In this document: positions 1 through 33,349 of the stretch, piece by piece
Layout: each line of letters begins with the position of its first letter
Numbering within the stretch: position 1 is the stretch's first letter
Sequence record: NC_070903.1
DNA length: 33,349 nucleotides
Origin: Escherichia phage P2_AC1
Strand: one strand, 5' to 3'
The notes under the pieces: model-generated
The model's input: the letters and a program-made list of their open reading frames with translations, nothing else
Database searches by the model: none
Told to the model about the DNA's origin: nothing
Program-made: the position numbers and the translations under genes

Positions 1-104
1 CGCCCGCTTCGTGGGGCGGTTTTAATGCAGTTGCATGAACACTCCAAGAGCGCGCCAGCACTGACGATAACTGACAATAAAAACGGCTTCTGACATATGC
101 ACAT

Positions 105-1022
105 TCATTCACAATCATGCATATTAAAGAACGGGTATGGATAGCGTCGTAAGATCTCATCTTCACTGTACCCCAAATAATCAGACATGAGTTTAATCGA
201 AGGTGGCGTTACAGGTTTCATAAGTAGAGGAAAACGTTCGTGCAAATCATTGAATTTAAGAATCCCTGAATCTTCTTGCATTACTCTTTTGTCAAACAGC
301 GATTCAGCATACAATGGCAACTCTTTGAGCAACAGATTAATATCAAGCAACAAAACATCTATCATAATCATTATTTGCTCAGTAATATCAATGTAATAAG
401 CTGCCTTATTACTACCTATAGCATTAACAATATCATCATTTTTAAAACGCATCGTAGGCAAAGGTGAACCTGTTGATTCAATAATCATTCCTCTATAGGT
501 GTCATCAAAATCATTCCTAACATTTAATGCAGCCAATAGGCTGTTAAACCTTCTTGCTATATCACTAACAGCAAAAGCATCCCCCCAGTTAGTAGTCTTT
601 GCTGTTTCTCTATTATTCCCTACTCCCTTTTGACTCAATATACAGGCCAACTCACTTAAATCTGATGATAGAGGAGCACCAGAAAAAACCACAACAGGAA
701 AAGCTAAAGCCCTCTCGATAGGATTTTCACTTATACTTACCCCACCATAATAATTCCCTTTAATTTGCAACAACGTTGTCATTGCAGAAAAGTAGTCATA
801 AATACATTTATTTACAACGCTTACCTTTCTTCTTTGTGCTTTAAGGTACTCCTGCCGATAAAACAACCTAGTTGCAATAAAGTAACTCAGCACAGAAGAT
901 ATAATTGGTAATACTACAGGCAGCACATAATCTTTTATGACATTAGTATTATTAACGCCTTTAATTGCATCAATAATATCCTCAACCTGAAGCTGTCCTA
1001 TTATATAGCTCGTATAATCCAT
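105..1022 (-). CDS. hypothetical cargo protein, N-terminal transmembrane anchor; no family recognised
   Basis: 305-aa ORF; ATG at 1020-1022 lies 2 nt after the stop of the upstream small ORF (tgaTAatg), suggesting coupling; hydrophobic helix at about res 33-55 (LPVVLPIISSVLSYFIATRLFY); strongly AT-rich DNA unlike backbone; last gene before the genome end. Confidence 0.6.
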   Translation of the reverse strand: MDYTSYIIGQLQVEDIIDAIKGVNNTNVIKDYVLPVVLPIISSVLSYFIATRLFYRQEYLKAQRRKVSVVNKCIYDYFSAMTTLLQIKGNYYGGVSISENPIERALAFPVVVFSGAPLSSDLSELACILSQKGVGNNRETAKTTNWGDAFAVSDIARRFNSLLAALNVRNDFDDTYRGMIIESTGSPLPTMRFKNDDIVNAIGSNKAAYYIDITEQIMIMIDVLLLDINLLLKELPLYAESLFDKRVMQEDSGILKFNDLHERFPLLMKPVTPPSIKLMSDYLGYSEDEILRRYPYPFFNMHDCE

Positions 1023-1213: not shown

Positions 1214-1702
1214 ATCAGTTTTCTTTTCAATCCAAACTCCTTAACAAACACAATACAAAAACATATAAATATATTATTTTTCAAACTAAGTAAATCCCAG
1301 CGATTCATAAACCCTCTGTGTCAATCTGATGGGCATCTAACGCCTCGCTGTGCTTGTTGTTCAACGCTGCCATTCCAGAACGACTGGAGAGATTCCCTAT
1401 CGTCTATGTGATGCTGCAACTCAGGATTGACCGATATTATTAAACCACTCCATAAATACCTCTAACAATTCTCCCCGACCAACTCACTCAGCGTCATTTT
1501 TTCGTTGCCCATCATCTGCTGTAGACGAAGAACATTTCATGGAACGATTTTAATACTGATGCGTTCATAGTTGAATTCAGCACAATAGCCGTAAGCAGGC
1601 ATAATCTTCTAACATTAATAATACATGTGCATTCATATAACATCGACAATTTTAATGATTTTATCAAAATAAAAAATAACATACCCATTATAAACGATAT
1701 AC

Positions 1703-1725
1703 AGCCGCTGAAAAATAGCGGCTGC
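1703..1725 (-). terminator. candidate intrinsic terminator downstream of the TIR gene
   Basis: Inverted repeat cagccgc / gcggctg with 9-nt loop, about 50 nt past the TIR-gene stop; U-tract on the minus strand is interrupted (tatatcgttta), so weak. Confidence 0.35.
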
Positions 1726-1775
1726 GGCATTATAAGTTTATATATGCAAAATTATTTATGATTAGTCAAAATTGA

Positions 1776-2723
1776 TTATTCCATTTCATCCCGTTCTGCA
1801 TCCTCCTCATCCATCATGTCAATTAAATTTCTGGTCCGCAATCTAAGCGCACTATTGAACATATTGTTTGATGAAACCCCACAATAATTATCTAAGTGAG
1901 CGATTACTCTAGAACAATCCATTATCATTTTATTTAATGATTCAATTAACTCGCTCCTAGATGTTTCATCAATACCACGGCGAATAAATCTTCTTTTTAC
2001 ACGAATTAGTGAATGATGCATGGATAATAAATCAGAAGCTACAATTTTTAAAACAGTTTCTTTACGCCCTTCCCTGTTTATTATTTTGCTAACATATTCT
2101 TCTGGCAATAATGATGCTGGATCACGCAATAATTGGTGATTTGTTCGGCTAATATCCAGCAAACTTTCAACAATTTTGGAAAGATTTTGTATCTCAGAAG
2201 TCGAATCACCTTTTGTTTTTTTAGTGGAATCTTTATCTACAGGGTTAATATCTTGAATGTTATCTAACTCACGCTCTAAACTTGGCCACCATTGCTCGAA
2301 AGCTTTAGTTAAGCGTTCTTCAGTCAAAAATCCTGCTTGATTATTTATTGACAACATCAACTTCAAAATATCGTTCTTATCATCCGAACGAGTATACTGG
2401 AATTGTAATATTGGGCCTGTTATCTCAGATGGTTTAATTTTAAACAAGAAAGGACTAACCCGGCTCTTATCAACCTTTTTACCTAAAGCACCCGCCTCAA
2501 AATTTATCCACGGTGCATTAATATTATTTTTTGTAAGGCAAATAATCCCATAAGAAGAGTCATCAAGTTCCTTTGATATATCAGTCGCCCAGCGAGTGCC
2601 TTTATCAATATCTTCCGCTGATACGTACGGCTCAGCTACTTGAATAACATTCGGTATCCAATCCCGTAATACTTTTGCTATCTCCAGGCTGTCCTGACCT
2701 GACCAACTAATAAATATCTTCAT
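1776..2723 (-). CDS. TIR-domain protein (N-terminal TIR, about res 1-125) with C-terminal helical domain of unknown function; candidate NAD+-consuming defence effector/sensor
   Basis: 315-aa ORF, ATG 2721-2723 with AAGGT about 9 nt upstream; N-terminus MKIFISWSGQD matches the TIR beta-A motif (F-I-S-x-S-x-x-D, same spacing as FISYSEHD of Toll-like receptors); W72-x3-E76 (APWINFEAG) matches the TIR W-x-x-x-E spacing; AT-rich. Confidence 0.75.
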   Translation of the reverse strand: MKIFISWSGQDSLEIAKVLRDWIPNVIQVAEPYVSAEDIDKGTRWATDISKELDDSSYGIICLTKNNINAPWINFEAGALGKKVDKSRVSPFLFKIKPSEITGPILQFQYTRSDDKNDILKLMLSINNQAGFLTEERLTKAFEQWWPSLERELDNIQDINPVDKDSTKKTKGDSTSEIQNLSKIVESLLDISRTNHQLLRDPASLLPEEYVSKIINREGRKETVLKIVASDLLSMHHSLIRVKRRFIRRGIDETSRSELIESLNKMIMDCSRVIAHLDNYCGVSSNNMFNSALRLRTRNLIDMMDEEDAERDEME

Positions 2724-2934
2724 AATACCATACCTTGATTAAAAAAGATCCATATCTATGACGTCAATACCTGAGCACGCGGGGAAGTTATGCCTTATGG
2801 CAGAATGATTTCTTATTAAGCCCGTGTTTTTGCTACATGTAGCGATAGCTGGCAGTGAAAACACCCATTTCCACATGCAAAACAATGCATCTGATACATG
2901 CGGATTTACAATGTCAGCTAATCAAAAGTCATGT

Positions 2935-2964
2935 AAAAAAATCACCCCCTAAGGGGTGATTTTT
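2935..2964 (-). terminator. rho-independent terminator (bidirectional hairpin) ending the A-proximal cargo operon
   Basis: Perfect 8-bp stem atcacccc / ggggtgat with 4-nt loop (2941-2960), A6 on one side and T4 on the other; on the minus strand it directly follows the stop of the 185-aa gene and is followed by 6 U. Confidence 0.65.
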
Positions 2965-3520
2965 ATGCGTATACAACCTTTTCAACCTGAGTATCAGGAA
3001 GCAGCATTATAGCTTCCTCTAAATCTCTTCCTTTGACCCACTGTACTAAACTACTTGCTGTCTTTATGACCCTAACACAGAACCATACAGCAAGGACAAA
3101 TGGAAACATGTAAAGCAATAACATTAAGCTATTGAATAACAGTACATTTTCAAGTATCCGACCGGATTTAAACAGTACATCAACAACTTCTCTATCATCA
3201 CAGCGTTTGAAAACATCTATCTCACGCCGAATTTTCTGCCTTATTGCATGGTTTTCTGCCATACGCTTTTGAGCACGAAATTTGTTTGGCAACGTGAGTA
3301 AATGCAATCTATTGATAGCGTTATTCAATGAGTCATGCACAAGTGTTGCCGCTTGCATGGAAGTATCGGAACCTCCATCAATGATTTTCCTCCTAGCGAC
3401 ATCACGAAGCGCAAACAATTGGTTTCTATAATGAAGTCGGATGGACGGCAAAATGATTCGCTCGTAAATGAAGTGTGCTGCGCCTAAACCCAACAGCACA
3501 TAAAACAGCACTGTCAGCAT
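2963..3520 (-). CDS. hypothetical membrane protein (two predicted TM helices flanking a ~110-aa soluble region)
   Basis: 185-aa ORF with strong RBS (AGGAG 6 nt before ATG at 3518-3520); TM1 res 2-19, TM2 about res 129-150; starts 20 nt after the stop of the upstream 126-aa gene (operon); followed by the terminator. Confidence 0.7.
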   Translation of the reverse strand: MLTVLFYVLLGLGAAHFIYERIILPSIRLHYRNQLFALRDVARRKIIDGGSDTSMQAATLVHDSLNNAINRLHLLTLPNKFRAQKRMAENHAIRQKIRREIDVFKRCDDREVVDVLFKSGRILENVLLFNSLMLLLYMFPFVLAVWFCVRVIKTASSLVQWVKGRDLEEAIMLLPDTQVEKVVYA

Positions 3521-3540
3521 AATAACTCCTAAATAAACAA

Positions 3541-3921
3541 CTATTTATCACTTGTACCCAAGGCTTGAGTGGTCTGTCTTTGTTGATACTTTGTTTTCTC
3601 GTTACCGATTCTCTGTGCCTCGGAACTAAAACAGCGCCTCATGATTCGCGCATGTGCAGACCAAGCCAAACCCACTATTACCGAGATAGCCCAACCAACC
3701 AAGGAATGCTCCTTAAAGCCATCAACAATAGAGAAGGCTAAATTGGACAAGTCAGTTTTTGGTAACCTCCATGCAGCAATCATTAAAATAATACTGATGG
3801 TAATAGGTATCAACTGACCATTAGACATGGCTCTTATCATTACATCCCGCCACGCCTGAGCCCACGTAACCTTAACCTGATTTTTGTTGCCTTTGCCTTT
3901 GCCTTTGCCTTGCTTCCCCAT
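3541..3921 (-). CDS. hypothetical small 2-TM membrane protein with Gly/Lys-rich N-terminus
   Basis: 126-aa ORF, ATG at 3919-3921; two hydrophobic helices (about res 36-52 and 73-89); first gene after a ~330-bp non-coding gap downstream of A; the N-terminal (GK)n is encoded by a hexamer repeat, so the true start could be internal. Confidence 0.6.
   Translation of the reverse strand: MGKQGKGKGKGNKNQVKVTWAQAWRDVMIRAMSNGQLIPITISIILMIAAWRLPKTDLSNLAFSIVDGFKEHSLVGWAISVIVGLAWSAHARIMRRCFSSEAQRIGNEKTKYQQRQTTQALGTSDK
3886..3913. repeat. in-frame hexanucleotide tandem repeat (ctttgc x3 plus partial copies) encoding the GKGKGKG tract
   Basis: Direct reading of ttgcctttgcctttgcctttgccttgc at the 5' end of the 126-aa ORF. 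Confidence 0.5.
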
Positions 3922-4250
3922 TTTACCCAGCCGCCGGTTACTTTTGAGGGCGCAAATAGTACAACTCGCTATCGTATTCAGTCAAAAAAGCTTTTCAGAT
4001 TTTTGACAAAAGCCAGCTTAATCCTTGATTACTTCTCCTTCTCAATACAAGGTGTATAGCAAAGAGCGCCCATCAATCAAGCAAAATCTCCTTCCTTTGG
4101 CTTCATTTATCACCAAAACACAACATATAGAGTACATCTTCCCATTAAATAACTATACGAGAGTGCAACGAGGAAACATTCTAATCATAGAACAAGATCT
4201 TTAGATGCTTAACGCTGCCCCCTGTAAATAATTTTCGCAACTGGCGACGT

Positions 4251-6572
4251 TCACTCCATTACTGCTGAGAATCCCCGCCACTCATCAGCGACCGGATACG
4301 TGAATTTTTTCCCGTCGTAATTTACAATTGCTCCACGCGCCAGCGCCTCAAGCTCCCATCGCTGCGGCCTGATACCGTTCTGAGCAAGGTCAACGCGGAT
4401 ACGGGTAATTTGCATTCGTTCTGACCGGGTCAGTCTGGCCGATGGTGCCATTTCATGCTGTTTTAACGGGCTTCCGTTTCTTTGCTGACGGTTTGGTCTT
4501 CTCAGACCTTGTTTTAATGCGCCCCTGAGCGCCCTCACGACCTCCGGGTCATTCCATTCAATAACACCGTCATCAACCAGATTAAGCACTGCTGCGGCGT
4601 GCTCAGAAGGTGTGGGAGCCGGTAACGAAGTATCACCACCGGTGAGCTTTCCACAGTTATTGACAGGACTCCGAGGCGCGGCGATGCCGCTTTTTAAAGT
4701 CAAAGGCTCAACGACCGGCACTTTCGGCACAATGCGCCAGTCCGTCGTTCTGGTGATATGAATATGACGCGCGCCGAGATGCGGCGCGTAAATGCCGACC
4801 ACTCTCTCGACTTCTTCCTCGTACTCGTTAACGTCATCCGACGGGCTACGGGCAACCCTGACAGTCTGACAATCGCGCGGGACATTTGCCCCACCCTGCG
4901 CGCTGATATACAACGCAAAATCACCACTGTCTGCAGCAGCGCGAGCAGCCTCGACGCGTTCGTCAAACTCATCAGCAATACTGACGCCGCGAGGCAATTT
5001 GCGTAGTTCACGGTAAGCCCCCATTGTCGGCAGGCCAACCGTTTTAAATTGCGGGATGCGCCACGTTGACGCCCATGCGGTAACAGCCGCCGCTGTGTCT
5101 TTCAGCGGTCTGCCGGTATCGTTATCGAGCTGACCATCCAGTGCATAGCCGTCGATGTTTTTTGAAATGTATTTCGCGATATATCCCGCAGCACCGCCCC
5201 GGTTAAGGTGTTTTGCCTGAAAACGGTTTCGCGCGGCTCCTCTTTCGTCGCCATCCTCTTTGAGCGCATAGCGACGCATGATTTCGATAATCTGGTTGCG
5301 CTGGCGTGGATTACAAAAAAGCATCATATGCCAGTGCGGCGTTCCGTCGTGGTGTGGCTCGACGACACGCAAACCGTAGACCTGTAAATCATTATCCTTG
5401 AATGCCGTGCGCATCAGGCTCCAGATACGGCAGAGATAACGCTGCGCATCCTTTGGATTAAATGCCTCATCGTTCCAGCCGTGATTAAGCTGAACGGTTT
5501 TACTTTCGCCTTTTCCGACCTGACGTGTCGGGTGATACTTTGACGGCGCGGTCAGCGTGATAAACATCCCCACATCACCCTCTGCGGCGGCGTAACGCTC
5601 AATACCGGCAATGGTGTTCATCAGCTCCATCCGGCGAATTTCTGGATTAGAAATACTGCCCATCACCTTACTGATAAGGTCGATGCGCTCGCCAGTTTCC
5701 CTGTTTTCAAGGTCACACGATTTAAGAAATTCCAGATTTGCCTGGCGGCGCGCACGCACATCACGAATGGCATGTTTACTGGCATAAGGAGAACGGTCTT
5801 TATTGACCTCCCCGACAGCAATCAGTAACGCCTCATGCCAGCGCATACGCTGGCCTTTAAGCTGATGAGTCCACCACTCATCGTTAAACAGGCGGGTAAT
5901 GGCAGAATATGCCTGCCTCGTGGTCATCTGCCCTTTACGGTATTTTTTCCAGTAGAGAGGGGAAATATTGAAAGCTCGTGCAGCGCCAGCAACATGACCA
6001 TACAGGTGAGCCTGCGCCTCATCCGTAAACAGCGATTCTTTCTCGCCATGCGCATCCACCCAGGCATCGCTGAGTTCCTCATACATCATGAAAAGCTGCG
6101 ATGAGATACGGGCGGCAAATTTTTTCAGCTCCTTGTCATTCATCCCCGGCAGGCGCGCATAGTGGTCACGCTCTGCCAGAAACAGCAACGACGCGTTGGT
6201 GTTCATTTCATGGCGCTGATTAACGCGCTCAATGCGCGGCCATAAACGACGCTGAAAAGTGGATGTGAGGAAATAAAACCCGTGCACCGGGCTTTTATTG
6301 CGCCGGATGTAGTCATAGCGTGAAGTAAACAGCGAGCGCAAAAAGTAAGGCAGGCGGTTAATCGTGGATAAAACACCTTGCACCTGACGCATCTCGTCAC
6401 GTGTAAGGGGTCTTTCGCGCCCGACAGCCTCGCGTGGCGCGTTCCATGCATAAGCACCGGTAAACGCCTTACCGGTGCCTGCGGCAAATGCTGACGGAGG
6501 GACAAAACGCCCGGAGGCTTTAACGGCCATGTGAGCCAAAAGCCTCTGAACAACGCTTGCTGAGTTGCTCAA
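4251..6572 (-). CDS. A: replication initiation endonuclease gpA (rolling-circle initiator)
   Basis: 773-aa ORF; sequence (MAVKASGRFVPPSAF..., HHDGTPHWHMMLF, YIAKYISKNIDGY) matches P2 gpA as remembered; true start probably the internal Met at about 6530 (~759 aa). Confidence 0.95.
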   Translation of the reverse strand: MSNSASVVQRLLAHMAVKASGRFVPPSAFAAGTGKAFTGAYAWNAPREAVGRERPLTRDEMRQVQGVLSTINRLPYFLRSLFTSRYDYIRRNKSPVHGFYFLTSTFQRRLWPRIERVNQRHEMNTNASLLFLAERDHYARLPGMNDKELKKFAARISSQLFMMYEELSDAWVDAHGEKESLFTDEAQAHLYGHVAGAARAFNISPLYWKKYRKGQMTTRQAYSAITRLFNDEWWTHQLKGQRMRWHEALLIAVGEVNKDRSPYASKHAIRDVRARRQANLEFLKSCDLENRETGERIDLISKVMGSISNPEIRRMELMNTIAGIERYAAAEGDVGMFITLTAPSKYHPTRQVGKGESKTVQLNHGWNDEAFNPKDAQRYLCRIWSLMRTAFKDNDLQVYGLRVVEPHHDGTPHWHMMLFCNPRQRNQIIEIMRRYALKEDGDERGAARNRFQAKHLNRGGAAGYIAKYISKNIDGYALDGQLDNDTGRPLKDTAAAVTAWASTWRIPQFKTVGLPTMGAYRELRKLPRGVSIADEFDERVEAARAAADSGDFALYISAQGGANVPRDCQTVRVARSPSDDVNEYEEEVERVVGIYAPHLGARHIHITRTTDWRIVPKVPVVEPLTLKSGIAAPRSPVNNCGKLTGGDTSLPAPTPSEHAAAVLNLVDDGVIEWNDPEVVRALRGALKQGLRRPNRQQRNGSPLKQHEMAPSARLTRSERMQITRIRVDLAQNGIRPQRWELEALARGAIVNYDGKKFTYPVADEWRGFSAVME

Positions 6573-9017: not shown

Positions 9018-10028
9018 ATGGTGAATACAGCGCCGGAGGGCTTTCTTATGGCAATTAAGAAGCTCGATGATGGTCGCTATGAAGTGGACATTAGACCTCG
9101 CGGTCGCGACGGAAAACGCATCCGCAGGAAATTCGAAAGAAAAGCTGAGGCACTAGCATTTGAGCGATACACAATCGCCAATGCCAGTCAGAAAGAATGG
9201 GGAGGCCAGCGAGCAGACCGCCGGACTTTGAGTGAGTTGCTGGACATCTGGTGGAAATATCACGGGCAAAACCACGAGCATGGAACAAAAGAGTTTAATC
9301 ATCTACTCAAAACCATCAGCGGCATAGGTGATATACCAGTGAGCAGGATGAGCAAAAGGGCTTTGATGGATTATCGTTCCATGCGACTACGTGATGGTAT
9401 CAGTGCCGCAACGATAAACCGTGACATGTACCGATTATCCGGCATGTTCACAAAATTAATTCAATTGGATGAATTTTCCGGGCAACACCCAATTCACGGA
9501 CTGCCGCCACTGGCGGAGGCCAACCCTGAAATGACGTTCCTGGAAAAAGCAGAAATCGAAAAACTGTTAAATGTTTTGGCTGGTGATGACTTACTTGTCG
9601 CGCTTTTATGTCTGAGCACTGGAGGAAGATGGACGGAAGTTGCCACGCTAAAACCAGCACAGATTACAAATTGCAGGGTTACCTTCCTGAAAACCAAAAA
9701 CGGTAAAAAGCGAACCGTGCCGATTTCTGAGGAACTGGAGAAAAAAGTTAAAGAGGAGGCCAGCGCCAAATTATTCAAAGTTAATTATGAGAAATTTTGC
9801 GGGATTTTACGCAGAGTGAAACCTGATATACCACCCAATCAGGCAACCCACATCCTGCGGCATACATTCGCAAGCCATTTCATGATGAATGGGGGCAATA
9901 TAATCGCACTGCAACAGATTCTGGGACATGCGAGCATTCAGCAGACGATGGCCTATGCGCACCTTGCGCCTGACTATCTGCAAAATGCCGTCGCTCTGAA
10001 TCCACTAAAAGGCGGAGTGACGTTATAA
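9018..10028 (+). CDS. int: tyrosine integrase (P2 Int type)
   Basis: ORF with MAIKKLDDGRYEVDIRPRGRDGKRIRRKF start (likely true ATG at 9048), C-terminal HxLRHTF...H...Y catalytic region; reads toward attP as in P2. Confidence 0.95.
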   Translation: MVNTAPEGFLMAIKKLDDGRYEVDIRPRGRDGKRIRRKFERKAEALAFERYTIANASQKEWGGQRADRRTLSELLDIWWKYHGQNHEHGTKEFNHLLKTISGIGDIPVSRMSKRALMDYRSMRLRDGISAATINRDMYRLSGMFTKLIQLDEFSGQHPIHGLPPLAEANPEMTFLEKAEIEKLLNVLAGDDLLVALLCLSTGGRWTEVATLKPAQITNCRVTFLKTKNGKKRTVPISEELEKKVKEEASAKLFKVNYEKFCGILRRVKPDIPPNQATHILRHTFASHFMMNGGNIIALQQILGHASIQQTMAYAHLAPDYLQNAVALNPLKGGVTL

Positions 10029-10062: not shown

Positions 10063-10146
10063 CTCAAGAAATTTTGAAACCGCTCCAAACCCTTACAGCT
10101 TTCGATAAGTACCTGTTTTTACTTTTGATTGCATGTAAGTAATTGA

Positions 10147-10174
10147 TAAAAAAAACCCCCACATCATGTGGGGG
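10147..10174 (-). terminator. rho-independent terminator of the D-ogr late transcript inside attP
   Basis: Palindrome cccccacat-c-atgtggggg followed on the minus strand by a run of 9 U (A9 at 10147-10155 on plus). Confidence 0.6.
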
Positions 10175-10239
10175 AAGACAGGGATGGTGTCACAAAAAAG
10201 CACCTAACCTGATGATATAAATGGATTTATATCAAACGC

Positions 10240-10302: not shown

Positions 10303-10521
10303 TTACATCCACATAATTTGCTGTCCTGACGGCAACGGGTGCGGCCTTACGGCATGGACTTCTCCCGGCTTCACGATGTATCGCTGTACCGACTCATAAG
10401 TGATGAACGTGGCGCTGCAATTCACGTTCTGACACTGGTGATAACGCTCTTTTGTCGTGTCAGTGATATAGCGGCTTGTACGCGCATGTGCGGCATGCTG
10501 GCATAAAGGACAATGAAACAT
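10303..10521 (-). CDS. ogr: Ogr, zinc-finger late-gene transcription activator
   Basis: MFHCPLCQHAAHARTSRYITDTTKERYHQCQNVNCSATF... (72 aa from the internal Met; the ORF track extends upstream to 10584); C-x2-C...C-x4-C zinc motif. Confidence 0.9.
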   Translation of the reverse strand: MFHCPLCQHAAHARTSRYITDTTKERYHQCQNVNCSATFITYESVQRYIVKPGEVHAVRPHPLPSGQQIMWM

Positions 10522-22068: not shown

Positions 22069-22072
22069 GGTT

Positions 22073-23052: not shown

Positions 23053-23135
23053 GCATGTGAGATTGCACAATATATAAAAGTTATGCTATCTGGATTCATT
23101 TGTAGAACTACCAGACAACATTCAAGGAGAGCGTA

Positions 23136-23921: not shown

Positions 23922-23926
23922 ACCTC

Positions 23927-23963
23927 TAAACATTGAGCGACCAGCATGGCCGCTCAATGTTTA
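23927..23963. terminator. bidirectional terminator hairpin between the convergent cargo gene and S
   Basis: About 12-bp stem taaacattgagcg / cgctcaatgttt around an 11-nt loop, between the stop of the 261-aa gene (23921) and the stop of S (23993). Confidence 0.5.
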
Positions 23964-23992
23964 ATTGCGCATCAGCCTCTGCCTGGATAAAA

Positions 23993-25851: not shown

Positions 25852-25865
25852 GGTGTTTACTCCGT

Positions 25866-26363
25866 TTAAGCCGGTACGCCGCCAGCGGTACGCCAGACGG
25901 TGACCAGTTTTTCCAGTGAATGCTCACGCTGACCGTAACCGGCACCCGGCAGGGACGCCCAGATATTGCGACAGCGTGAAATGGCGCGCTCAATGCGTCC
26001 CGCCCGGATGTCATCCAGTGCTCCGCGTTCGCGGATCAACTGAATGGCGAGTCTGTCCTGTGACAACGGACTGAAATCCGGCAGGGCAAGCTGTTTGCGG
26101 TAATGCGGCCAGAACAGGTAAAGCTGCTGATAGCGACCGGAGGCCGTGGATTTTTCACCGCGACGGTTAAACACCTTCGCCGGTCGGCCATGTGCGAACG
26201 GGTGGTCACTGTAGTCGGTGAAAATTTCCGGCTTTCCGTCCAGTCCGGTGACTATCACGTCATAGCCCCGGTTTTTCGTCAGCGGATGATTCGCCGTCCC
26301 TTCGGACACGGCCAGCATGTCGAGAAAGGCGGCGATATTCTGATGCGTGTTAATTACCGGCAT
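25866..26363 (-). CDS. K: endolysin gpK (lysozyme-like)
   Basis: 165-aa ORF, P2 gpK length and position. Confidence 0.9.
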   Translation of the reverse strand: MPVINTHQNIAAFLDMLAVSEGTANHPLTKNRGYDVIVTGLDGKPEIFTDYSDHPFAHGRPAKVFNRRGEKSTASGRYQQLYLFWPHYRKQLALPDFSPLSQDRLAIQLIRERGALDDIRAGRIERAISRCRNIWASLPGAGYGQREHSLEKLVTVWRTAGGVPA

Positions 26364-26644
26364 TACGGTTTCCCCCTGCCCTTAAAACGGCGCTGAATGG
26401 CAATCTCAATCACCTGATAACCGGCGATGCCCAGCATGGAGCCGATGCCGCACACCGCAGGCAGTGACAGGTCAGGAAACTGCACCAGAACAACACCGGC
26501 AACCATCGAGACAAAACCACCGAGCAACATGCGCCCGATAAACAGACGCGGGGTGATAGGTTCACCACCGGCAAGCACCTTGCCGACAACAATCAGCACC
26601 CCAATCATGAAAAGCGACAGGACGCTTTTTTCTTCTGCTGTCAT
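26363..26644 (-). CDS. Y: holin gpY
   Basis: 93-aa ORF with hydrophobic helices and charged C-terminus (RRFKGRGKP). Confidence 0.9.
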   Translation of the reverse strand: MTAEEKSVLSLFMIGVLIVVGKVLAGGEPITPRLFIGRMLLGGFVSMVAGVVLVQFPDLSLPAVCGIGSMLGIAGYQVIEIAIQRRFKGRGKP

Positions 26645-26647
26645 GCG

Positions 26648-26851
26648 TTACTCCCACAGATTGACAGTTTCAGCCACGGGCGCGGTCTGAACGTCAGGCA
26701 GTTCGACGGCGGTGCCGTGCGGCAGCACCGCGCCCAGTTCAGCCAGTCCCGGATTTGCGGCGAGCACGGCCTCGACCACGCCCTCAGTGCGCCCGTAATA
26801 CCGGACACAAATGGCGTCAAGCGTGTCGCCCTGTAGCGCAAAGGTCTCCAT
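26648..26851 (-). CDS. X: tail protein gpX (LysM-like)
   Basis: METFALQGDTLDAICVRYYG... 67 aa from the internal Met; start overlaps the L stop by 1 nt. Confidence 0.85.
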   Translation of the reverse strand: METFALQGDTLDAICVRYYGRTEGVVEAVLAANPGLAELGAVLPHGTAVELPDVQTAPVAETVNLWE

Positions 26852-27360
26852 CAGATTTGACTCACGATGCAGCGCGGCTTGTCCTGGATACGCGCCACCG
26901 CCCAGCGCATATCCCGCCACAGCTCATCAATGGTGCTGTCAATGCTGTCAGCCTTCTTGTCGCCTTTCGCACTGGCATCCACGCCGCGATAACGCTCATA
27001 AAGCGATGCGGTCGCCATCGCACACACGGCGCGCTCGTAGTAAAAAACCTTGATGCTTTCACCGTCGATATCGTCCGCCGGGACGTCCGCCAGACGCGTA
27101 AAACCGGCAGCAATTTTCTGTTCGCGGTACTCGTACAGCTCCGCATTCGTCTCCGCCATGCCTGACTTGATGGCCTCACGCAGACGGGCGGGGGCGACGG
27201 TCTGCTCAAGGCGCATACGTTCCCGGACGCGCTTCGGGTCGATATCGGGAAAAAAGAACGTGTTTTTAATCACCGGCTCGTCGCCTGCCGGTTGCGGGAT
27301 GACCACCGTACCCTCACCGGACACGGGAGCCTCCTTTCGCGGAATAATCAGCGTCATCAT
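26851..27360 (-). CDS. L: head completion/stabilisation protein gpL
   Basis: MMTLIIPRKEAPVSGEG... 169 aa from the internal Met (the ORF track extends to 27420). Confidence 0.9.
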   Translation of the reverse strand: MMTLIIPRKEAPVSGEGTVVIPQPAGDEPVIKNTFFFPDIDPKRVRERMRLEQTVAPARLREAIKSGMAETNAELYEYREQKIAAGFTRLADVPADDIDGESIKVFYYERAVCAMATASLYERYRGVDASAKGDKKADSIDSTIDELWRDMRWAVARIQDKPRCIVSQI

Positions 27361-27459
27361 GACTACCTCTGAAAAGTCGGGCGGTGGACGCCGGTGCAGT
27401 GTCAGGTGATTCACCCTCACTGACCGGCGTGCCGCCCTGGCGCGGGGCGCATTCGGTTG

Positions 27460-28203
27460 TTAACTGGCTTTCTTTTTCGGGCGTCCACGTTTTGCCGGTG
27501 CCACGCTCCGGGTCTTACGCGGGGCGCGGGTGGCCGCTTTTGGCTGTGGCTCCGGCTTCGGTTTCAGTTCCCGCTCCAGTCGTTCAATCTCTTTTTTGAC
27601 GCCTGCCTGACAGTCGAGCTGTGTCGCACGTTGCAGGTGCGCCAGCGCACCTGCGGCATCACCAGTGTCACGCAGAAACAGACCAGTGATTTTGTGCAGC
27701 TTTGCGCGCACTTCATCAGGCATGTCTGCCGTGGCAGTCAGTTCAAGGGTGTCCGTCAGCAGGCGGGTATCCACAGACTCACCGGCAACGTGAGCACGCA
27801 TGGCCGCGAGCGCCACCTCCTCGGTGAACATGTACGGCGGGGTGCGGCGGTGTTTACCCGGCATGGTCAGACCGTACTTCAGGGCATAACGGGCAATCTC
27901 CAGCGCACCGGCAATATCGCCGGTATCCAGACGCCACAGCATGACCGTCATCAGAATGTCATCCTGTGCACCTTTGCCCTGCTCCAGCACGCCGTTCACC
28001 CACGGCAACCAGAACGGCAGCAGTTCGCGTTTTTTCGCGGCCTTCAGCTCTTTTGAATAAATCGCTTTCAGTGTGCGCTGGTCTGCGGCCAGCTTGACCA
28101 GCATCTGCTCATAGACAGTTGCATGTCGCAACGGGGCGGCTTCCCGCTGCGCGGTCATCGCTGCCGAGACCCGCATCATGTGACGCTGTGCGGGACTCGT
28201 CAT
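27460..28203 (-). CDS. M: terminase small (endonuclease) subunit gpM
   Basis: 247-aa ORF, P2 gpM length and position. Confidence 0.9.
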   Translation of the reverse strand: MTSPAQRHMMRVSAAMTAQREAAPLRHATVYEQMLVKLAADQRTLKAIYSKELKAAKKRELLPFWLPWVNGVLEQGKGAQDDILMTVMLWRLDTGDIAGALEIARYALKYGLTMPGKHRRTPPYMFTEEVALAAMRAHVAGESVDTRLLTDTLELTATADMPDEVRAKLHKITGLFLRDTGDAAGALAHLQRATQLDCQAGVKKEIERLERELKPKPEPQPKAATRAPRKTRSVAPAKRGRPKKKAS

Positions 28204-28206
28204 CGG

Positions 28207-29280
28207 TTACGCTCCCGGCTCTGCGTTCGCTTTATCCGGTGTGGAGAAATCACCGACCTTAATTTTTTCCACCAGACAACCGGCGGCGTAGTCCTCCACC
28301 ACGTAATCAATGTTCATTGACTCGTAGTTCTCCACGCGGTCGAGTTTCGGGTTTTCCTCAATCACGCGGCGATGGCTGTCATCCATGTAGTAGATGGACA
28401 GGTTTTCCAGCTTTGTGATGAGCATCGCATCCGCCGGGAAGTACGGGACGCGTACCGCTGGCAGGTTGCCGATGCGTTTCTGGCTGATGATGACGTCAGC
28501 GGCCAGCATTTCGCTGTTGTCCTGCTCCTTGTTGACGATGGGAAAATACTTGTCCGCCAGTAGCTGACGTCCCACAATCACCACAAGGTCAGGGTCTTCC
28601 TGATACCACGGCTCAATCAGGTTGTTGGTCGCATCCATCACCAGTGCGTCAAGGCTGGCATAATCACCGCCCTTACCCACGCGGATAACCTCAGAGGTGG
28701 TGTGCCCTTCCTCGTCAGTGACCTTGCTCATCACGCGCGCCGGTGCTTCATTGCGGTATTTCTGCAGCCAGCCGACCGCCACATCCTGTAGCATCGGATT
28801 GCTGCTGCGGTCAGAGGTTTCTGCACGCTTCACGCCGTTAAAACCGGCCATGATGAAATCAAGGGACTGGCGTTTGATAATGGCGTTACGGATACGGAGC
28901 TGGAAATCCTGATAACGCGCCCACAGGTCCAGCGTTTTGTAGCGGATATAAAAATCGAAGTTAATCTGGTCGCATTCGTACTTGTTAGACGCCAGCTTCG
29001 AGAAGTCCTTCGGCTGACGCTCGGTGCCACCGGCGGTGTCGGTGGTGCTGGCGATGGAGCCGGTGACACCGATGCCAATTTTTTCCCCTTTCATTTCGCT
29101 GACCGGCACAATGTTGATGCGGGTCAGAAAGTCAGAGGACTCCTGCATGGTGTTCATCAGGGTCTGGGTGACCGACGGTTCAACGGTGAATTTTTTCGAC
29201 ACATCACCGGCGTCGATGCCGTTCAGTTCGGCAACACGGGACAGGTAGGCATTAAATTTAAAGCGGGTTTCCTGGCGCAT
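28207..29280 (-). CDS. N: major capsid protein gpN
   Basis: 357-aa ORF MRQETRFKFNAYLSRVAELNG..., P2 gpN length. Confidence 0.95.
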   Translation of the reverse strand: MRQETRFKFNAYLSRVAELNGIDAGDVSKKFTVEPSVTQTLMNTMQESSDFLTRINIVPVSEMKGEKIGIGVTGSIASTTDTAGGTERQPKDFSKLASNKYECDQINFDFYIRYKTLDLWARYQDFQLRIRNAIIKRQSLDFIMAGFNGVKRAETSDRSSNPMLQDVAVGWLQKYRNEAPARVMSKVTDEEGHTTSEVIRVGKGGDYASLDALVMDATNNLIEPWYQEDPDLVVIVGRQLLADKYFPIVNKEQDNSEMLAADVIISQKRIGNLPAVRVPYFPADAMLITKLENLSIYYMDDSHRRVIEENPKLDRVENYESMNIDYVVEDYAAGCLVEKIKVGDFSTPDKANAEPGA

Positions 29281-29338
29281 AGTTTTTCCTGAAATTAAGG
29301 GTTAATCGTGAAGGTTTTCCCGGACTGACTGACGCCGG

Positions 29339-30193
29339 TCAGCAGTTCGTCATCAGGGCGTCACCGCCACCGCCGGTGGCTTTGCTGCGGCGCTGCTGGG
29401 TCAGACTTTCGGTGTGGTCGAGACTGTTTTTCAGGCGGGTGAATGCCTGACTGGTTTCATCCGCCCTGTCAGTCACATCCTGCTTAAGTGCGGAAAAGGC
29501 GGTTTCCATCTCAGCAAGGCGCTGCTCAGTGGCGCTCAGTTTTTCCTGCACATGTTCAGCAACAGCGGTCACCGCTTCATGCACGTCATTCAGACGGGCA
29601 TCATCGCTGGCCTGTTTGCGGCCAAAAATGGACTTCACCTTTTCGGTCAGGGCGGTGAACACGGTTTCAGGCAGGTCTTCAAATTCCAGCTCAACAGGCG
29701 TTGCCACTGAAATCAGATTTTCAGGGCTTAATTTGAAGCGGTTCAGGGGGTTGTGTTTTGCCGTGCGGCAGAATTCCAGGTATTCCGTGCCGAGGCTTGC
29801 CGGGTCATCGGTGACGGCCAGACCCACCAGATAACATTTGCCGGTATTGGCAAAGTTCGGCTGAATTTCCATTGAGGTATAGACCTTCTGCGCGGCCTTG
29901 TTCATCGCGATAAGGTCATCGGTCGGGGTGATTTTCGCAAACAGCGCCCATTTGCCTTTCAGCGCCGAATCATCGTCAATCTTTTCGGCCTTCAGTTCGG
30001 CCACATCGCCATAACGCTTAAAAATACCGTCAGGCAGGATGCCGCGCAGATGTTCCAGGTTAATGCGGCAACCATAGACTCGCGGGTCAAAGGTTTCGGC
30101 CATTTCCTGAATATCCTGCGCACTGATGACACGCCCGTCACAGGTGTCACCCTCAACGCCGATACGAAAGAATTTTGAGACTTTTTTTGCCAT
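29339..30193 (-). CDS. O: capsid scaffolding protein/protease gpO
   Basis: MAKKVSKFFRIGVEGDTCDGRVISAQDIQEM... 284 aa from the internal Met (the ORF track extends to 30259). Confidence 0.9.
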   Translation of the reverse strand: MAKKVSKFFRIGVEGDTCDGRVISAQDIQEMAETFDPRVYGCRINLEHLRGILPDGIFKRYGDVAELKAEKIDDDSALKGKWALFAKITPTDDLIAMNKAAQKVYTSMEIQPNFANTGKCYLVGLAVTDDPASLGTEYLEFCRTAKHNPLNRFKLSPENLISVATPVELEFEDLPETVFTALTEKVKSIFGRKQASDDARLNDVHEAVTAVAEHVQEKLSATEQRLAEMETAFSALKQDVTDRADETSQAFTRLKNSLDHTESLTQQRRSKATGGGGDALMTNC

Positions 30194-30366
30194 TGTCAGG
30201 AGTCCTGAATAGTGATTAGAGGAGTCACATGTCGGCATCAGTTTCCCGACGATGCGCATCCTCCGCCATCAGTCCCGGATGGCTTATCACTGACACAACA
30301 GCACCTTAGCGAATCGCGGGGCGCGACTCAGTAGCCTTGCCGTGTATTCATCACGGCGAGGTATTC

Positions 30367-32139
30367 ATGACCATCACCACAGACACCACTCTTTTACACG
30401 ACCCGCGTCGTCAGGCGGCGCTGCTGTACTGGCAGGGGTTTTCCGTGCCGCAGATTGCCGCCATGTTGCAGATGAAACGCCCGACGGTGCAGAGCTGGAA
30501 ACAGCGCGACGGCTGGGACAGCGTTGCCCCCATCAGCCGTGTCGAAATGAGTCTGGAAGCGCGGCTGACCCAGCTCATCATCAAACCGCAGAAAACCGGC
30601 GGTGACTTCAAGGAAATTGACCTGCTGGGACGCCAGATTGAACGGCTGGCGCGGGTCAACCGCTACAGTCAGACCGGCAACGAGGCAGACCTTAATCCGA
30701 ACGTCGCTAACCGCAACAAAGGCGGGCGTCGCAAACCGAAAAAGAATTTTTTCAGTGACGAGGCCATCGAAAAGCTGGAGCAGATTTTCTTTGAGCAGTC
30801 TTTCGACTATCAGTTGCACTGGTATCGCGCCGGGCTTGAGCACCGCATCCGCGATATCCTGAAATCCCGCCAGATTGGCGCGACGTTTTATTTTTCCCGC
30901 GAGGCGCTGCTGCGCGCCCTGAAAACCGGTCATAACCAGATTTTTCTGTCGGCCAGTAAAACGCAGGCGTATGTGTTCCGCGAATACATCATCGCCTTTG
31001 CCCGTCTGGTTGACGTTGACCTGACCGGTGACCCGATTGTCCTGGGCAATAACGGCGCAAAACTGATTTTTCTCGGCACCAACTCCAACACCGCACAGAG
31101 CCATAACGGTGACCTGTACGTCGACGAGATTTTCTGGATCCCGAATTTTCAGGTACTGCGTAAGGTGGCATCAGGTATGGCCTCACAGAGTCACCTGCGC
31201 TCAACCTATTTCTCCACCCCGTCCACGCTGGCGCACGACGCCTACCCGTTCTGGTCGGGTGAACTGTTTAACCGGGGACGCGCCAGCGCCGCCGAACGCG
31301 TGGAAATCGACGTCAGTCATAACGCACTTGCCGGAGGTCTTCTCTGTGCGGACGGCCAGTGGCGGCAGATTGTCACCATTGAGGACGCCCTGAAAGGCGG
31401 CTGCACGCTGTTCGACATTGAGCAGCTCAAACGCGAAAACAGCGCCGACGATTTTAAAAACCTGTTCATGTGTGAATTTGTTGACGACAAGGCGTCGGTG
31501 TTCCCGTTCGAGGAGTTGCAACGCTGCATGGTCGACACGCTGGAAGAATGGGAAGACTATGCGCCGTTTGCCGCCAATCCGTTCGGCTCACGCCCGGTCT
31601 GGATTGGTTACGACCCGTCACACCGTGGCGACAGCGCCGGATGCGTGGTACTGGCACCGCCGGTGGTTGCCGGTGGCAAATTCAGAATACTTGAGCGTCA
31701 CCAGTGGAAAGGCATGGACTTTGCCACCCAGGCGGAATCCATCCGCAAACTCACCGAAAAATACAACGTCGAATACATCGGTATTGATGCCACCGGCCTC
31801 GGTGTCGGCGTGTTCCAGCTCGTGCGCTCGTTCTATCCTGCCGCGCGCGACATCCGCTACACGCCGGAAATGAAAACCGCAATGGTGCTCAAGGCAAAAG
31901 ACGTTATCCGCCGTGGCTGTCTGGAATACGACGTCAGCGCCACCGACATCACCAGCTCGTTTATGGCTATCCGCAAGACCATGACCAGCAGCGGACGCAG
32001 CGCCACCTATGAGGCCAGCCGCAGCGAGGAAGCCAGCCACGCCGACCTCGCCTGGGCGACCATGCACGCCCTGTTAAATGAGCCACTCACCGCCGGTATC
32101 AGCACCCCGCTGACATCCACCATTCTGGAGTTTTACTGA
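30367..32139 (+). CDS. P: terminase large (ATPase) subunit gpP
   Basis: MTITTDTTLLHDPRRQAALLYWQGFSVPQIAAM... 590 aa with GAGG RBS; divergent from O as in P2. Confidence 0.95.
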   Translation: MTITTDTTLLHDPRRQAALLYWQGFSVPQIAAMLQMKRPTVQSWKQRDGWDSVAPISRVEMSLEARLTQLIIKPQKTGGDFKEIDLLGRQIERLARVNRYSQTGNEADLNPNVANRNKGGRRKPKKNFFSDEAIEKLEQIFFEQSFDYQLHWYRAGLEHRIRDILKSRQIGATFYFSREALLRALKTGHNQIFLSASKTQAYVFREYIIAFARLVDVDLTGDPIVLGNNGAKLIFLGTNSNTAQSHNGDLYVDEIFWIPNFQVLRKVASGMASQSHLRSTYFSTPSTLAHDAYPFWSGELFNRGRASAAERVEIDVSHNALAGGLLCADGQWRQIVTIEDALKGGCTLFDIEQLKRENSADDFKNLFMCEFVDDKASVFPFEELQRCMVDTLEEWEDYAPFAANPFGSRPVWIGYDPSHRGDSAGCVVLAPPVVAGGKFRILERHQWKGMDFATQAESIRKLTEKYNVEYIGIDATGLGVGVFQLVRSFYPAARDIRYTPEMKTAMVLKAKDVIRRGCLEYDVSATDITSSFMAIRKTMTSSGRSATYEASRSEEASHADLAWATMHALLNEPLTAGISTPLTSTILEFY

Positions 32140-33173
32140 TGAGCAAGAAAAAAGGGAAAACACCGCAACCTGCGGCAAAAACAATGACCGCCAGCGCCCC
32201 GAAAATGGAGGCATTCACCTTTGGTGAGCCGGTGCCGGTACTCGACCGCCGTGACATTCTGGATTACGTCGAGTGCATCAGTAACGGCAGATGGTATGAG
32301 CCACCGGTCAGCTTTACCGGTCTGGCAAAAAGCCTGCGTGCTGCCGTACATCACAGCTCACCGATTTACGTCAAACGTAATATTCTGGCTTCAACGTTTA
32401 TCCCGCACCCGTGGCTGTCCCAGCAGGATTTCAGCCGCTTTGTGCTGGATTTTCTGGTGTTCGGTAATGCGTTTCTGGAAAAACGTTACAGCACCACCGG
32501 TAAGGTCATCAGACTGGAAACCTCACCGGCAAAATATACCCGCCGTGGTGTGGAAGAGGATGTTTACTGGTGGGTGCCGTCCTTCAACGAGCCGACACCT
32601 TTCGCGCCCGGCTCCGTGTTTCACCTGCTGGAGCCGGATATTAATCAGGAGCTGTACGGCCTGCCGGAATATCTCAGCGCCCTTAACTCTGCCTGGCTGA
32701 ATGAATCGGCCACGCTGTTCCGCCGCAAGTATTACGAAAACGGCGCACATGCCGGATACATCATGTACGTCACCGATGCCGTGCAGGATCGCAACGATAT
32801 CGAAATGCTCCGCGAAAACATGGTGAAGTCGAAAGGCCGCAACAACTTTAAAAATCTGTTTCTCTATGCCCCACAGGGGAAAGCCGACGGCATTAAAATT
32901 ATCCCGCTCAGTGAAGTGGCAACGAAGGACGATTTTTTTAATATCAAAAAAGCAAGCGCCGCTGACCTGCTGGACGCGCACCGCATCCCCTTTCAGTTGA
33001 TGGGCGGTAAGCCGGAGAACGTCGGGTCGCTGGGTGATATTGAGAAAGTGGCAAAGGTCTTTGTCCGCAATGAGCTTATCCCGTTACAGGACAGGATTCG
33101 GGAAATAAACGGCTGGCTCGGTCAGGAGGTCATCCGCTTTAAAAACTACTCACTGGACACTGACAACGGCTGA
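32139..33173 (+). CDS. Q: portal protein gpQ
   Basis: 344-aa ORF MSKKKGKTPQPAAKTMTASAPKMEAFTFGEPVPVLDRRD...; start overlaps the P stop. Confidence 0.95.
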   Translation: MSKKKGKTPQPAAKTMTASAPKMEAFTFGEPVPVLDRRDILDYVECISNGRWYEPPVSFTGLAKSLRAAVHHSSPIYVKRNILASTFIPHPWLSQQDFSRFVLDFLVFGNAFLEKRYSTTGKVIRLETSPAKYTRRGVEEDVYWWVPSFNEPTPFAPGSVFHLLEPDINQELYGLPEYLSALNSAWLNESATLFRRKYYENGAHAGYIMYVTDAVQDRNDIEMLRENMVKSKGRNNFKNLFLYAPQGKADGIKIIPLSEVATKDDFFNIKKASAADLLDAHRIPFQLMGGKPENVGSLGDIEKVAKVFVRNELIPLQDRIREINGWLGQEVIRFKNYSLDTDNG

Positions 33174-33178: not shown

Positions 33179-33200
33179 GCCGCCTGCGGGCGGCTTTTTT
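33179..33200 (+). terminator. rho-independent terminator downstream of Q
   Basis: Stem gccgcc / ggcggc with loop tgcg, followed by T6. Confidence 0.7.
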
Positions 33201-33330
33201 ACACCCCCGTCATCACGCCCTCACACGCTCGCCACTGTACAAAACACCCCGCAGACACACCAACGCCCCGGTGCACAATCTAAACGCCATCACGACGCGC
33301 TCAGACAATCATCACCACCGCCAGCGCGCA

Positions 33331-33349
33331 GTGCTTTCCCCGCCTCGCC
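33331..33349. other. cos: cos cohesive-end sequence (19 nt), genome terminus
   Basis: The last 19 nt, gtgctttccccgcctcgcc, are the reverse complement of GGCGAGGCGGGGAAAGCAC, which I recall as the P2 5' cohesive end; lies just past Q as in P2. Confidence 0.8.

What the first reader, a model, noticed from the sequence alone, without database searches (positions are those of the whole stretch)
33331..33349. Window ends exactly at the cos cohesive end: a complete phage genome in virion coordinates, reverse orientation
The terminal 19 nt are the reverse complement of the P2 cos overhang as I recall it, and the internal int-attP-ogr unit is uninterrupted. The window is therefore a whole P2-like genome in linear, packaged form rather than an integrated prophage with split att sites. 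This fixes the orientation and explains why the variable cargo region sits at the window start (P2 right end).
Basis: partly seen in the sequence, partly recalled or inferred. Interest (0 to 1): 0.4.

Follow-up and report, generated by a model that had tools for sequence, protein, structure and literature searches.

The report
P2-like phage genome cut at cos

Summary
Confirmed and ordinary. Window 33331-33349 (GTGCTTTCCCCGCCTCGCC) is the exact reverse complement of the annotated 19-nt cohesive end of phage P2 (cosL). It is the only such site in the window, even with 3 mismatches allowed. Window base 1 corresponds to the last P2 base before cosR, so the overhang is written once and there is no terminal redundancy.

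Joining window end to start gives a sealed cos. That junction is contiguous in permuted phage records, matches an E. coli M21816 prophage at 100% over 1000 bp, and is identical over its 61-nt core in ten bacterial assemblies. This core carries every position invariant among P2, P4, 186, PsP3 and two more distant relatives.

int-attP-ogr is intact. A 47-bp core (10145-10191) is shared with the attL and attR of the M21816 prophage, which sits between cpxP and fieF. The empty site is uninterrupted in 4592 of 5426 E. coli genomes.

The first ~4.2 kb is the known cos-proximal P2 defence hotspot. It holds the 2TM+1TM+TIR system of phage AC1 (Rousset et al. 2022): three proteins and 400 nt are identical, so the window is very probably AC1.

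Sequence alone cannot show that the ends are physical rather than a choice of coordinates. Novelty: already known.

The parts
33331..33349 (.). 19-nt cohesive-end sequence of cos, written as the reverse complement of P2 cosL (GGCGAGGCGGGGAAAGCAC)
   Evidence: Exact 19/19 match to the annotated cosL of NC_001895 and KF322032 and to the P4 left end. It is unique in the window at up to 3 mismatches, with 0 of 100 shuffles matching.
33324..33349 (.). Left-end half of the conserved cos core: the 19-mer plus TGCGCGC
   Evidence: GCGCGC and 17 of the 19 overhang positions are invariant in the alignment of window, P2, P4, 186, PsP3, Klebsiella ST147-VIM1phi7.1, Erwinia ENT90 and fiAA91-ss or SIAC10.
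1..35 (.). Right-end half of the conserved cos core (reverse complement TGCAACTGCATTAAAACCGCCCCACGAAGCGGGCG). Window base 1 corresponds to P2 base 33574.
   Evidence: Aligns without gaps to the last 35 nt before cosR of P2 and to the right ends of P4, 186 and PsP3. P4 shares only this stretch (H135).
33179..33194 (+). Terminator-like hairpin after portal gene Q (equivalent of P2 tQ)
   Evidence: Consensus scan on the collinear M21816 locus, 6701-6686 on the minus strand. P2 annotates tQ at the equivalent place.
32139..33173 (+). Portal protein gpQ
   Evidence: Pfam Phage_portal. Annotated as portal in the matching records.
30367..32139 (+). Large terminase gpP (ATPase and nuclease), which is expected to cut cos
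   Evidence: Pfam Terminase_5, Terminase_6N and Terminase_6C. Coordinates come from the collinear PGAP annotation.
27460..28203 (-). Small terminase gpM
   Evidence: Pfam Phage_term_smal, 1e-47.
9048..10028 (+). Tyrosine integrase
   Evidence: Pfam Int_N and Phage_integrase. 100% identical DNA to the M21816 prophage integrase next to cpxP.
10145..10191 (.). attP core, 47 bp: GATAAAAAAAACCCCCACATCATGTGGGGGAAGACAGGGATGGTGTC
   Evidence: This is the overlap of the two collinear blocks with the M21816 chromosome, present at both attL and attR. The reconstructed cpxP-core-fieF attB is uninterrupted in 4592 of 5426 E. coli genomes.
10303..10521 (-). ogr, the late-gene activator
   Evidence: Pfam Ogr_Delta, 2e-21. 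Annotated ogrK in M21816 next to fieF.
4251..6530 (-). Replication endonuclease gpA, the inner boundary of the cargo hotspot
   Evidence: Pfam Phage_GPA, 1e-123. Homology to other P2-like phages begins at about 4250.
1389..4186 (-). 2TM + 1TM + TIR anti-phage system of phage AC1. Genes: 3541-3921, 2963-3520 and 1776-2723.
   Evidence: PADLOC 2TM-TIR, 1TM-TIR and TIR-TM, E-values 7e-58 to 3e-118. The three proteins are 100% identical to those in Table S2A of PMC9122126. The first 400 nt of the cloned fragment and the reverse primer match exactly.
105..1022 (-). 305-aa ORF of unknown function, the last gene before cos
   Evidence: Matches only phrog_21267 (unknown function). No Pfam, NCBIfam or PADLOC match. 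Always found next to the TIR system and 104 nt from cos in 10 bacterial loci.

Best explanation
The window is one complete unit of a P2-like (Peduovirus) temperate phage genome, very probably phage AC1 of Rousset et al. 2022. It is written as the reverse complement of the P2 map and is broken exactly at the top-strand nick of cos.

Shown here:
- The last 19 nt are the P2/P4 cohesive-end sequence.
- Window 33324-33349 plus 1-35 form the ~61-nt conserved cos core when joined.
- The cognate portal (Q), large terminase (P) and small terminase (M) genes lie next to it.
- attP is intact between int and ogr.

Inferred from established P2/P4 biology (Ziermann & Calendar 1990, Gene 96:9, and Wang et al. 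1973, Biochemistry 12:2119, both as cited in PMC2231350 and PMC9594776):
- Terminase gpM/gpP binds cos on closed circular monomers and nicks the two strands 19 nt apart.
- It threads the DNA through the gpQ portal. Virion DNA is linear with complementary 19-nt 5' overhangs.
- After injection the ends anneal and are ligated, which re-forms cos.
- Integration then uses the 47-bp attP core against the cpxP-fieF intergenic attB.

The window's minus strand equals one physical virion strand. The physical plus strand would be 33331-33349 followed by 1-33330.
For: - 19/19 identity to the annotated cosL of P2 at the exact window end, unique in the window, with 0 of 100 shuffles matching.
- Window base 1 corresponds to P2 33574, just before cosR.
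- The junction is contiguous in 10W, DC1 and SIDE7. It is 100% identical over 1000 bp in the M21816 chromosome. Its 61-nt core is identical in 10 bacterial loci.
- All invariant cos positions of an 8-member alignment, which includes satellite P4 and three other genera, are present.
- Q, P and M were identified by Pfam.
- The window is collinear with the M21816 prophage, with 0 indels and 181 substitutions, but permuted so that attP is whole. The empty attB is widespread.
- The full P2 late and early gene set is annotated in that collinear prophage, with no pseudogene flags.
- Length is 33,349 bp, against 33,574 unique bp in P2.
- AC1 identity: three defence proteins, 400 nt and a primer site are identical. 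AC1 is the only one of the four phages of that project missing from the search collection. AC1 was plaque-purified, lysogenises E. coli C and was sequenced from phage DNA.
- The 186 and PsP3 records annotate 'top strand cut at 5' end, bottom strand cut at 3' end' of the 19-mer, which means 5' overhangs.
Against: - Nothing contradicts the reading of the coordinates.
- No read-level or biochemical evidence was available, so physical ends are inferred by homology only.
- The 19 nt occur once, whereas the P2 and fiAA91-ss records write them at both ends. The termini therefore reflect some curation or assembly convention.
- Identity with AC1 rests on about 2.8 kb of cargo, and the M21816 prophage has the same three proteins. 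A near-identical sibling phage cannot be excluded.
Confidence: 0.93

Rival explanations
1. The ends are bookkeeping only. A circular assembly or a computationally excised prophage was rotated, by hand or by software, to begin and end at the P2 cos. The termini then say nothing about the DNA that was sequenced.
For: - The overhang is present once, not at both ends as end-repaired virion DNA or the P2 and fiAA91-ss records would show.
- Many Peduovirus records start exactly at cos by convention.
- A sealed version of the same junction exists in many bacterial genomes.
- The 47-bp att core is identical in attL and attR, so an in-silico excision would be seamless.
Against: - Sister records from the same project were not rotated to cos. 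DC1 breaks about 115 nt inside the left end, and SIDE7 has cos at about 476-494.
- SIAC10 has exactly the same two breakpoints and the same orientation as the window. This looks more like assemblies that break at real ends.
- AC1 DNA came from purified phage.
- Even if this rival is true, the window is still in virion coordinates.
Confidence: 0.25
2. The window is an excerpt of an integrated prophage, or of a tandem double lysogen, taken from a bacterial chromosome.
For: - A 99.5% identical prophage is integrated between cpxP and fieF in E. coli M21816.
- A cos-to-cos stretch with an intact attP could in principle be cut out of a tandem array.
Against: - In the single prophage, cos is internal and int and ogr lie at opposite ends next to host genes. 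The window instead has int-attP-ogr contiguous and no host sequence.
- No tandem array was seen in any locus examined.
- An arbitrary excerpt would not begin and end on the two faces of one nick to the base.
Confidence: 0.03
3. The terminal 19-mer is a chance or unrelated GC-rich match and is not a cos site.
Against: - Exact match to annotated cos features, unique in the window, never seen in shuffles.
- The flanks on both sides align to the cos regions of eight relatives.
- The site lies between Q and the hotspot, as in P2.
Confidence: 0.01

Closest known systems
Bacteriophage P2 cos (NC_001895, cosL 1-19 and cosR 33575-33593)
   Same: The 19-nt overhang is identical. The breakpoints and the position between Q and the right-end accessory genes are the same. 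The 30 nt before cosR differ at 2 positions, and the 9 nt after the 19-mer are identical.
   Different: - The window is reverse-complemented and writes the 19 nt once.
- It lacks 13 bp present in P2, about 45-57 nt in from the left end.
- Further out on the right-end side (-30 to -60) it resembles P4, 186 and PsP3 more than P2.
- The cargo is 2TM+1TM+TIR plus a 305-aa ORF, on the opposite strand, where P2 has orf91, tin and old.
Satellite phage P4 cos (NC_001609)
   Same: The 19-mer is identical. The conserved core (about 35 nt on the right-end side plus GCGCGC on the left) is shared. This corresponds to the published ~55-bp cos common to P2 and P4 (PMC9594776; PMC2231350).
   Different: P4 has no terminase, portal or capsid genes of its own. 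Nothing outside the core is homologous.
P2-like phage AC1 (Rousset et al. 2022, PMC9122126; ENA ERZ3656369 / SAMEA9990737)
   Same: The 2TM, 1TM and TIR proteins are 100% identical. The first 400 nt of the cloned locus and the reverse primer site match exactly. Both are P2-like genomes.
   Different: The full AC1 record could not be compared because it is not in the searchable collection. Identity is therefore inferred.
P2-like phage SIAC10 (OU784549.1), same project
   Same: Same reverse orientation. It starts at cgcccgcttc... and ends with the 19-mer, which are the same two breakpoints. The backbone is about 95% identical over window 4249-25000.
   Different: Its hotspot cargo differs and includes a BspRI-type methylase. 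Length is 33,562 bp.
Prophage of E. coli M21816 (NZ_CP133923.1) between cpxP and fieF
   Same: Collinear over all 33,349 bp with no indels and 181 substitutions. Same cargo and same att core.
   Different: It is integrated, so cos is internal and sealed, and attP is split into attL and attR. 177 of the substitutions cluster in the late-gene region 22-32 kb.

Membership tests
P2/P4-type cos site (19-nt 5' cohesive ends) | Overhang sequence GGCGAGGCGGGGAAAGCAC (186 and PsP3 differ at 2 positions) | tested here: met
   19/19 identity to the annotated cosL of P2 and fiAA91-ss and to the P4 left end.
P2/P4-type cos site (19-nt 5' cohesive ends) | Conserved flanking core of about 55 bp, shared with satellite P4 | tested here: met
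   All 40 invariant columns of the 8-sequence alignment are present in the window junction. The core spans window 33324-33349 plus 1-35.
P2/P4-type cos site (19-nt 5' cohesive ends) | End-to-start joining gives a sealed site that occurs in replicated or integrated copies | tested here: met
   Contiguous in 10W, DC1, SIDE7, the M21816 chromosome and 10 bacterial loci.
P2/P4-type cos site (19-nt 5' cohesive ends) | Cognate gpM/gpP terminase and gpQ portal encoded next to it | tested here: met
   Pfam Phage_term_smal, Terminase_5/6N/6C and Phage_portal.
P2/P4-type cos site (19-nt 5' cohesive ends) | Staggered cleavage in vivo, giving 19-nt 5' overhangs in virion DNA | not testable with these tools
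   Needs virion DNA or raw reads. Inferred from the record annotations of 186 and PsP3 and from the literature (PMC2231350).
Peduovirus (P2-like) complete genome | Full syntenic set Q-P-O-N-M-L ... FI-FII-E-T-U-D-ogr / int-C-cox-B-A | tested here: met
   The indel-free collinear M21816 prophage has all of these annotated, with no pseudogene flags. Key genes were confirmed by Pfam. The backbone is 95-97% identical to Peduovirus records.
Peduovirus (P2-like) complete genome | Intact attP between int and ogr (excised topology) | tested here: met
   A 47-bp core at 10145-10191 with the phage arms of attL and attR on either side. An empty attB exists.
Phage AC1 (Rousset et al. 2022) | Identity of the hotspot locus and its three proteins | tested here: met
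   400 nt, the primer site and the three proteins are identical. The M21816 prophage encodes the same TIR protein, and its hotspot differs from the window at only 2 bases, so this feature does not discriminate between them.
Phage AC1 (Rousset et al. 2022) | Whole-genome identity to ERZ3656369 | not testable with these tools
   The record is absent from the 'phages' collection. The three sister phages are present.

The most novel reading that the evidence does not exclude
The GC hairpin followed by TTTTAAT forms only when cos is sealed. Its first stem base is window 33349 and the rest is window 1-19. It might act as a topology-dependent transcription terminator, insulating the hotspot cargo from read-through of the late P-Q operon in circular or prophage DNA, in addition to being part of the terminase recognition site. 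Separately, the uncharacterised 305-aa gene that always lies between the TIR system and cos could be an untested fourth component or an independent defence or counter-defence gene.
Probability: 0.1. Interest if true: 0.3.

Novelty: already known. Interest (0 to 1): 0.06.

Why it matters
The practical value is small. The result fixes the orientation and coordinate system of the window: P2 map reversed, left end at the window's 3' end. It shows that the sequence is a whole phage unit with no host flanks. It places the first 4.2 kb in the known cos-proximal defence hotspot, and it identifies the phage as AC1 or a sibling. None of this changes what is known about P2 packaging.

Tried and rejected
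- **Terminator at the nick.** A consensus scan finds CCGCCC-N8-GGGCGG followed by TTTTAAT spanning the bottom-strand nick. The fold is no better than shuffles, z = -0.09. Across 8 cos sites there are 0 compensatory pairs, and 81% of cells pair against 75% with the partner slid by one column. There is no support for a selected structure, and the conservation is explained by cos itself.
- **Short repeats around cos as terminase-binding sites.** Only weak 10-14-nt matches were found. Not pursued.
- **Looking for the source record.** No identical record exists in the phage collection. Two IMG/VR contigs share the cos-proximal sequence but have other lengths, 26,079 and 33,085 bp.
- **Looking for contigs that end at cos.** Searching for contigs that encode the 305-aa protein returned only long bacterial contigs with a sealed cos. 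No virion-read evidence came from this.
- **Locus L025.** It seemed to have different genes after cos, suggesting a P4-like context. It is the same P2-like Q/P region aligned in 7 pieces with broken ORFs, so either a poor draft or a decayed copy.
- **One literature search failed** on a term shorter than 3 characters.

Full report
**Observation.** The last 19 bases of the window, 33331-33349, read GTGCTTTCCCCGCCTCGCC. Their reverse complement, GGCGAGGCGGGGAAAGCAC, is identical to bases 1-19 of the P2 reference NC_001895, which that record annotates as 'cosL; left cohesive end'. It is also identical to cosL of fiAA91-ss and to the left end of satellite P4. Phages 186 and PsP3 differ at two positions. 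The 19-mer occurs once in the window on either strand, even with three mismatches allowed, and none of 100 dinucleotide-preserving shuffles gave a match.

**The other end.** The reverse complement of window 1-30 is CTGCATTAAAACCGCCCCACGAAGCGGGCG. In P2 the same stretch, with two substitutions, ends at base 33574, immediately before the annotated cosR at 33575-33593. The window therefore corresponds to P2 bases 1-33574, reverse-complemented. It is one genome unit with the overhang written once. By contrast, the P2 and fiAA91-ss records repeat the 19 nt at both ends. There is no terminal redundancy: the longest prefix that equals a suffix is 4 nt.

**Joining the ends.** Window end plus window start gives ...GCGCAGTGCTTTCCCCGCCTCGCC|CGCCCGCTTCGTGGGGCGGTTTTAATGCAG.... 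This junction appears unbroken in several places:
- the circularly permuted phage records 10W, DC1 and SIDE7;
- the chromosome of E. coli M21816, where a 1000-bp junction query matches at 100%;
- all ten bacterial loci that encode the cos-proximal 305-aa protein, where the 61-nt core is identical.

I aligned the junction with P2, fiAA91-ss, P4, 186, PsP3, Klebsiella phage ST147-VIM1phi7.1, Erwinia phage ENT90 and SIAC10. The alignment shows a core of about 61 nt: roughly 35 nt on the right-end side, the 19-mer, and GCGCGC on the left. The window carries every invariant position. P4 shares nothing else with the window. This fits the published ~55-bp cos common to P2 and P4 (Ziermann & Calendar 1990, as cited in PMC9594776, and PMC2231350).

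**Surroundings.** Portal gpQ (32139-33173, +) and large terminase gpP (30367-32139, +) lie immediately inside the cos end. Small terminase gpM (27460-28203, -), capsid gpN and scaffold gpO lie a little further in. All five were confirmed by Pfam. The backbone from about 4250 onward is 95-97% identical to Peduovirus records.

**Topology.** The window is collinear with a prophage of E. coli M21816, with no indels and 181 substitutions:
- window 1-6530 matches chromosome 6530-1;
- window 6531-10191 matches the end of the circular chromosome record;
- window 10145-33349 matches chromosome 29735-6531.

In the chromosome, the integrase lies next to cpxP and ogr lies next to fieF. In the window, int (9048-10028), a 47-bp segment (10145-10191) and ogr (10303-10521) are contiguous. 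That 47-bp segment is the overlap of the two blocks, so it is present at both attL and attR and is the att core. A reconstructed empty site, cpxP-core-fieF, is uninterrupted in 4592 of 5426 complete E. coli genomes. The window therefore has the excised phage permutation and carries no host DNA.

**Cargo and identity.** Window 1-4250 has almost no match in the phage collection. It occupies the place of P2 orf91, tin and old. Three of its genes match the PADLOC models 2TM-TIR, 1TM-TIR and TIR-TM. Rousset et al. 2022 describe the cos-proximal hotspot between gpA and gpQ and a '2TM + 1TM + TIR' system from the P2-like phage AC1 (PMC9122126). Their Table S2A gives the cloned sequence and the proteins. 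The first 400 nt match window 3788-4186 on the minus strand exactly. The reverse primer sits at window 1389. All three proteins are 100% identical.

The three sister phages of that project are in the collection: SIAC10 (OU784549), DC1 (OU784750) and SIDE7 (OU784746). AC1 is not. SIAC10 has the same reverse orientation and the same two breakpoints as the window, whereas DC1 and SIDE7 are broken elsewhere. I conclude that the window is very probably AC1. AC1 was plaque-purified on E. coli C, lysogenises it, and was sequenced from phage DNA with SPAdes. The M21816 prophage encodes the same TIR protein and differs from the window at only 2 bases in 1-6530, so a sibling phage is not excluded.

**Mechanism.** Shown here are the sequence, position and conservation of cos, its cognate packaging genes, and the intact attP. 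The following steps are inferred from established P2/P4 knowledge (PMC2231350; the 186 and PsP3 record notes):
- Terminase cuts closed circular monomers at cos, nicking the top strand 5' of the 19-mer and the bottom strand 3' of it. This gives 19-nt 5' overhangs.
- The ends cohere and are ligated after injection.

As written, the window's minus strand is exactly one virion strand. The physical plus strand would start with 33331-33349 and end at 33330.

**What cannot be decided.** Sequence alone cannot show whether the termini come from physical ends seen in the reads or from rotation of a circular assembly. The single copy of the overhang points to some convention or trimming. The unrotated sister records argue against systematic rotation. 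Either way the coordinates are virion coordinates.

**Side checks.**
- A terminator-like hairpin with a T-run spans the nick and exists only in sealed cos. It folds no better than shuffles and shows no covariation in eight sequences.
- Short repeats around cos are weak.
- Locus L025 looked different after cos but is the same Q/P region with broken ORFs.

**Verdict.** This is a known phage family, a known cos site, a known hotspot and very likely a published phage. Novelty: already known. Interest: low.

Noticed in passing
window 105-1022 (-): A 305-aa ORF lies directly next to cos. It has no Pfam, NCBIfam or PADLOC match and hits only phrog_21267 (unknown function). It lies outside the AC1 fragment that was cloned and tested (1389-4186). 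In all 10 bacterial loci examined it sits in the same four-gene arrangement with 2TM, 1TM and TIR, 104 nt from cos. The exact protein is listed in 439 blocks of the assembly index.
   Followed up: partly
window 1389-4186 (-): The cargo at the P2 right end is the experimentally validated 2TM+1TM+TIR defence system of phage AC1. It is transcribed towards cos, the opposite direction to old and tin in P2.
   Followed up: yes
window 23136-23921 (+) and 17235-17828 (-): Two further accessory ORFs sit at the other known variable P2 loci. One is between S and V (the orf30 position, phrog_2407). The other is between G and FI (the Z/fun position, phrog_3829, named 'lysogenic conversion protein' by PGAP). 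Both are of unknown function.
   Followed up: partly
L008 / NZ_CP133923.1 base 1, and other records: The complete chromosome record of E. coli M21816 starts at the first base of the prophage replication gene gpA. In one search at least seven other complete E. coli chromosomes have the cos junction at about 5.0-7.0 kb from the record start. This suggests that start-fixing software mistook a P2-like replication gene for the chromosomal origin marker.
   Followed up: no
window 22000-32000 compared with L008: Of the 181 substitutions against the M21816 prophage, 177 fall in the late-gene region 22-32 kb. The remaining ~23 kb, including the cargo, differs at 4 positions. This looks like a recombination patch rather than uniform divergence.
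   Followed up: partly
window 33349 + 1-26 (sealed junction); L008 6531-6512 (-): The terminator-like hairpin CCGCCC-GCTTCGTG-GGGCGG followed by TTTTAAT spans the bottom-strand nick, so it exists only when cos is sealed. There is no covariation among 8 relatives, and the fold z-score is -0.09.
   Followed up: yes
window ~33293-33305 (about 45-57 nt from the cos end): The window, like the M21816 prophage, lacks 13 bp (GTATTTTTTCAGC in P2) that P2 and fiAA91-ss carry just outside the conserved cos core.
   Followed up: no
window 10145-10191: The 47-bp att core contains a hairpin flanked by an A-run (AAAAAAAACCCCCACATCATGTGGGGG), T-rich on the other strand. It lies in the cpxP-fieF intergenic region and looks like a host terminator that the phage core would regenerate on integration. 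The site is split in about 830 of 5426 complete E. coli genomes.
   Followed up: partly
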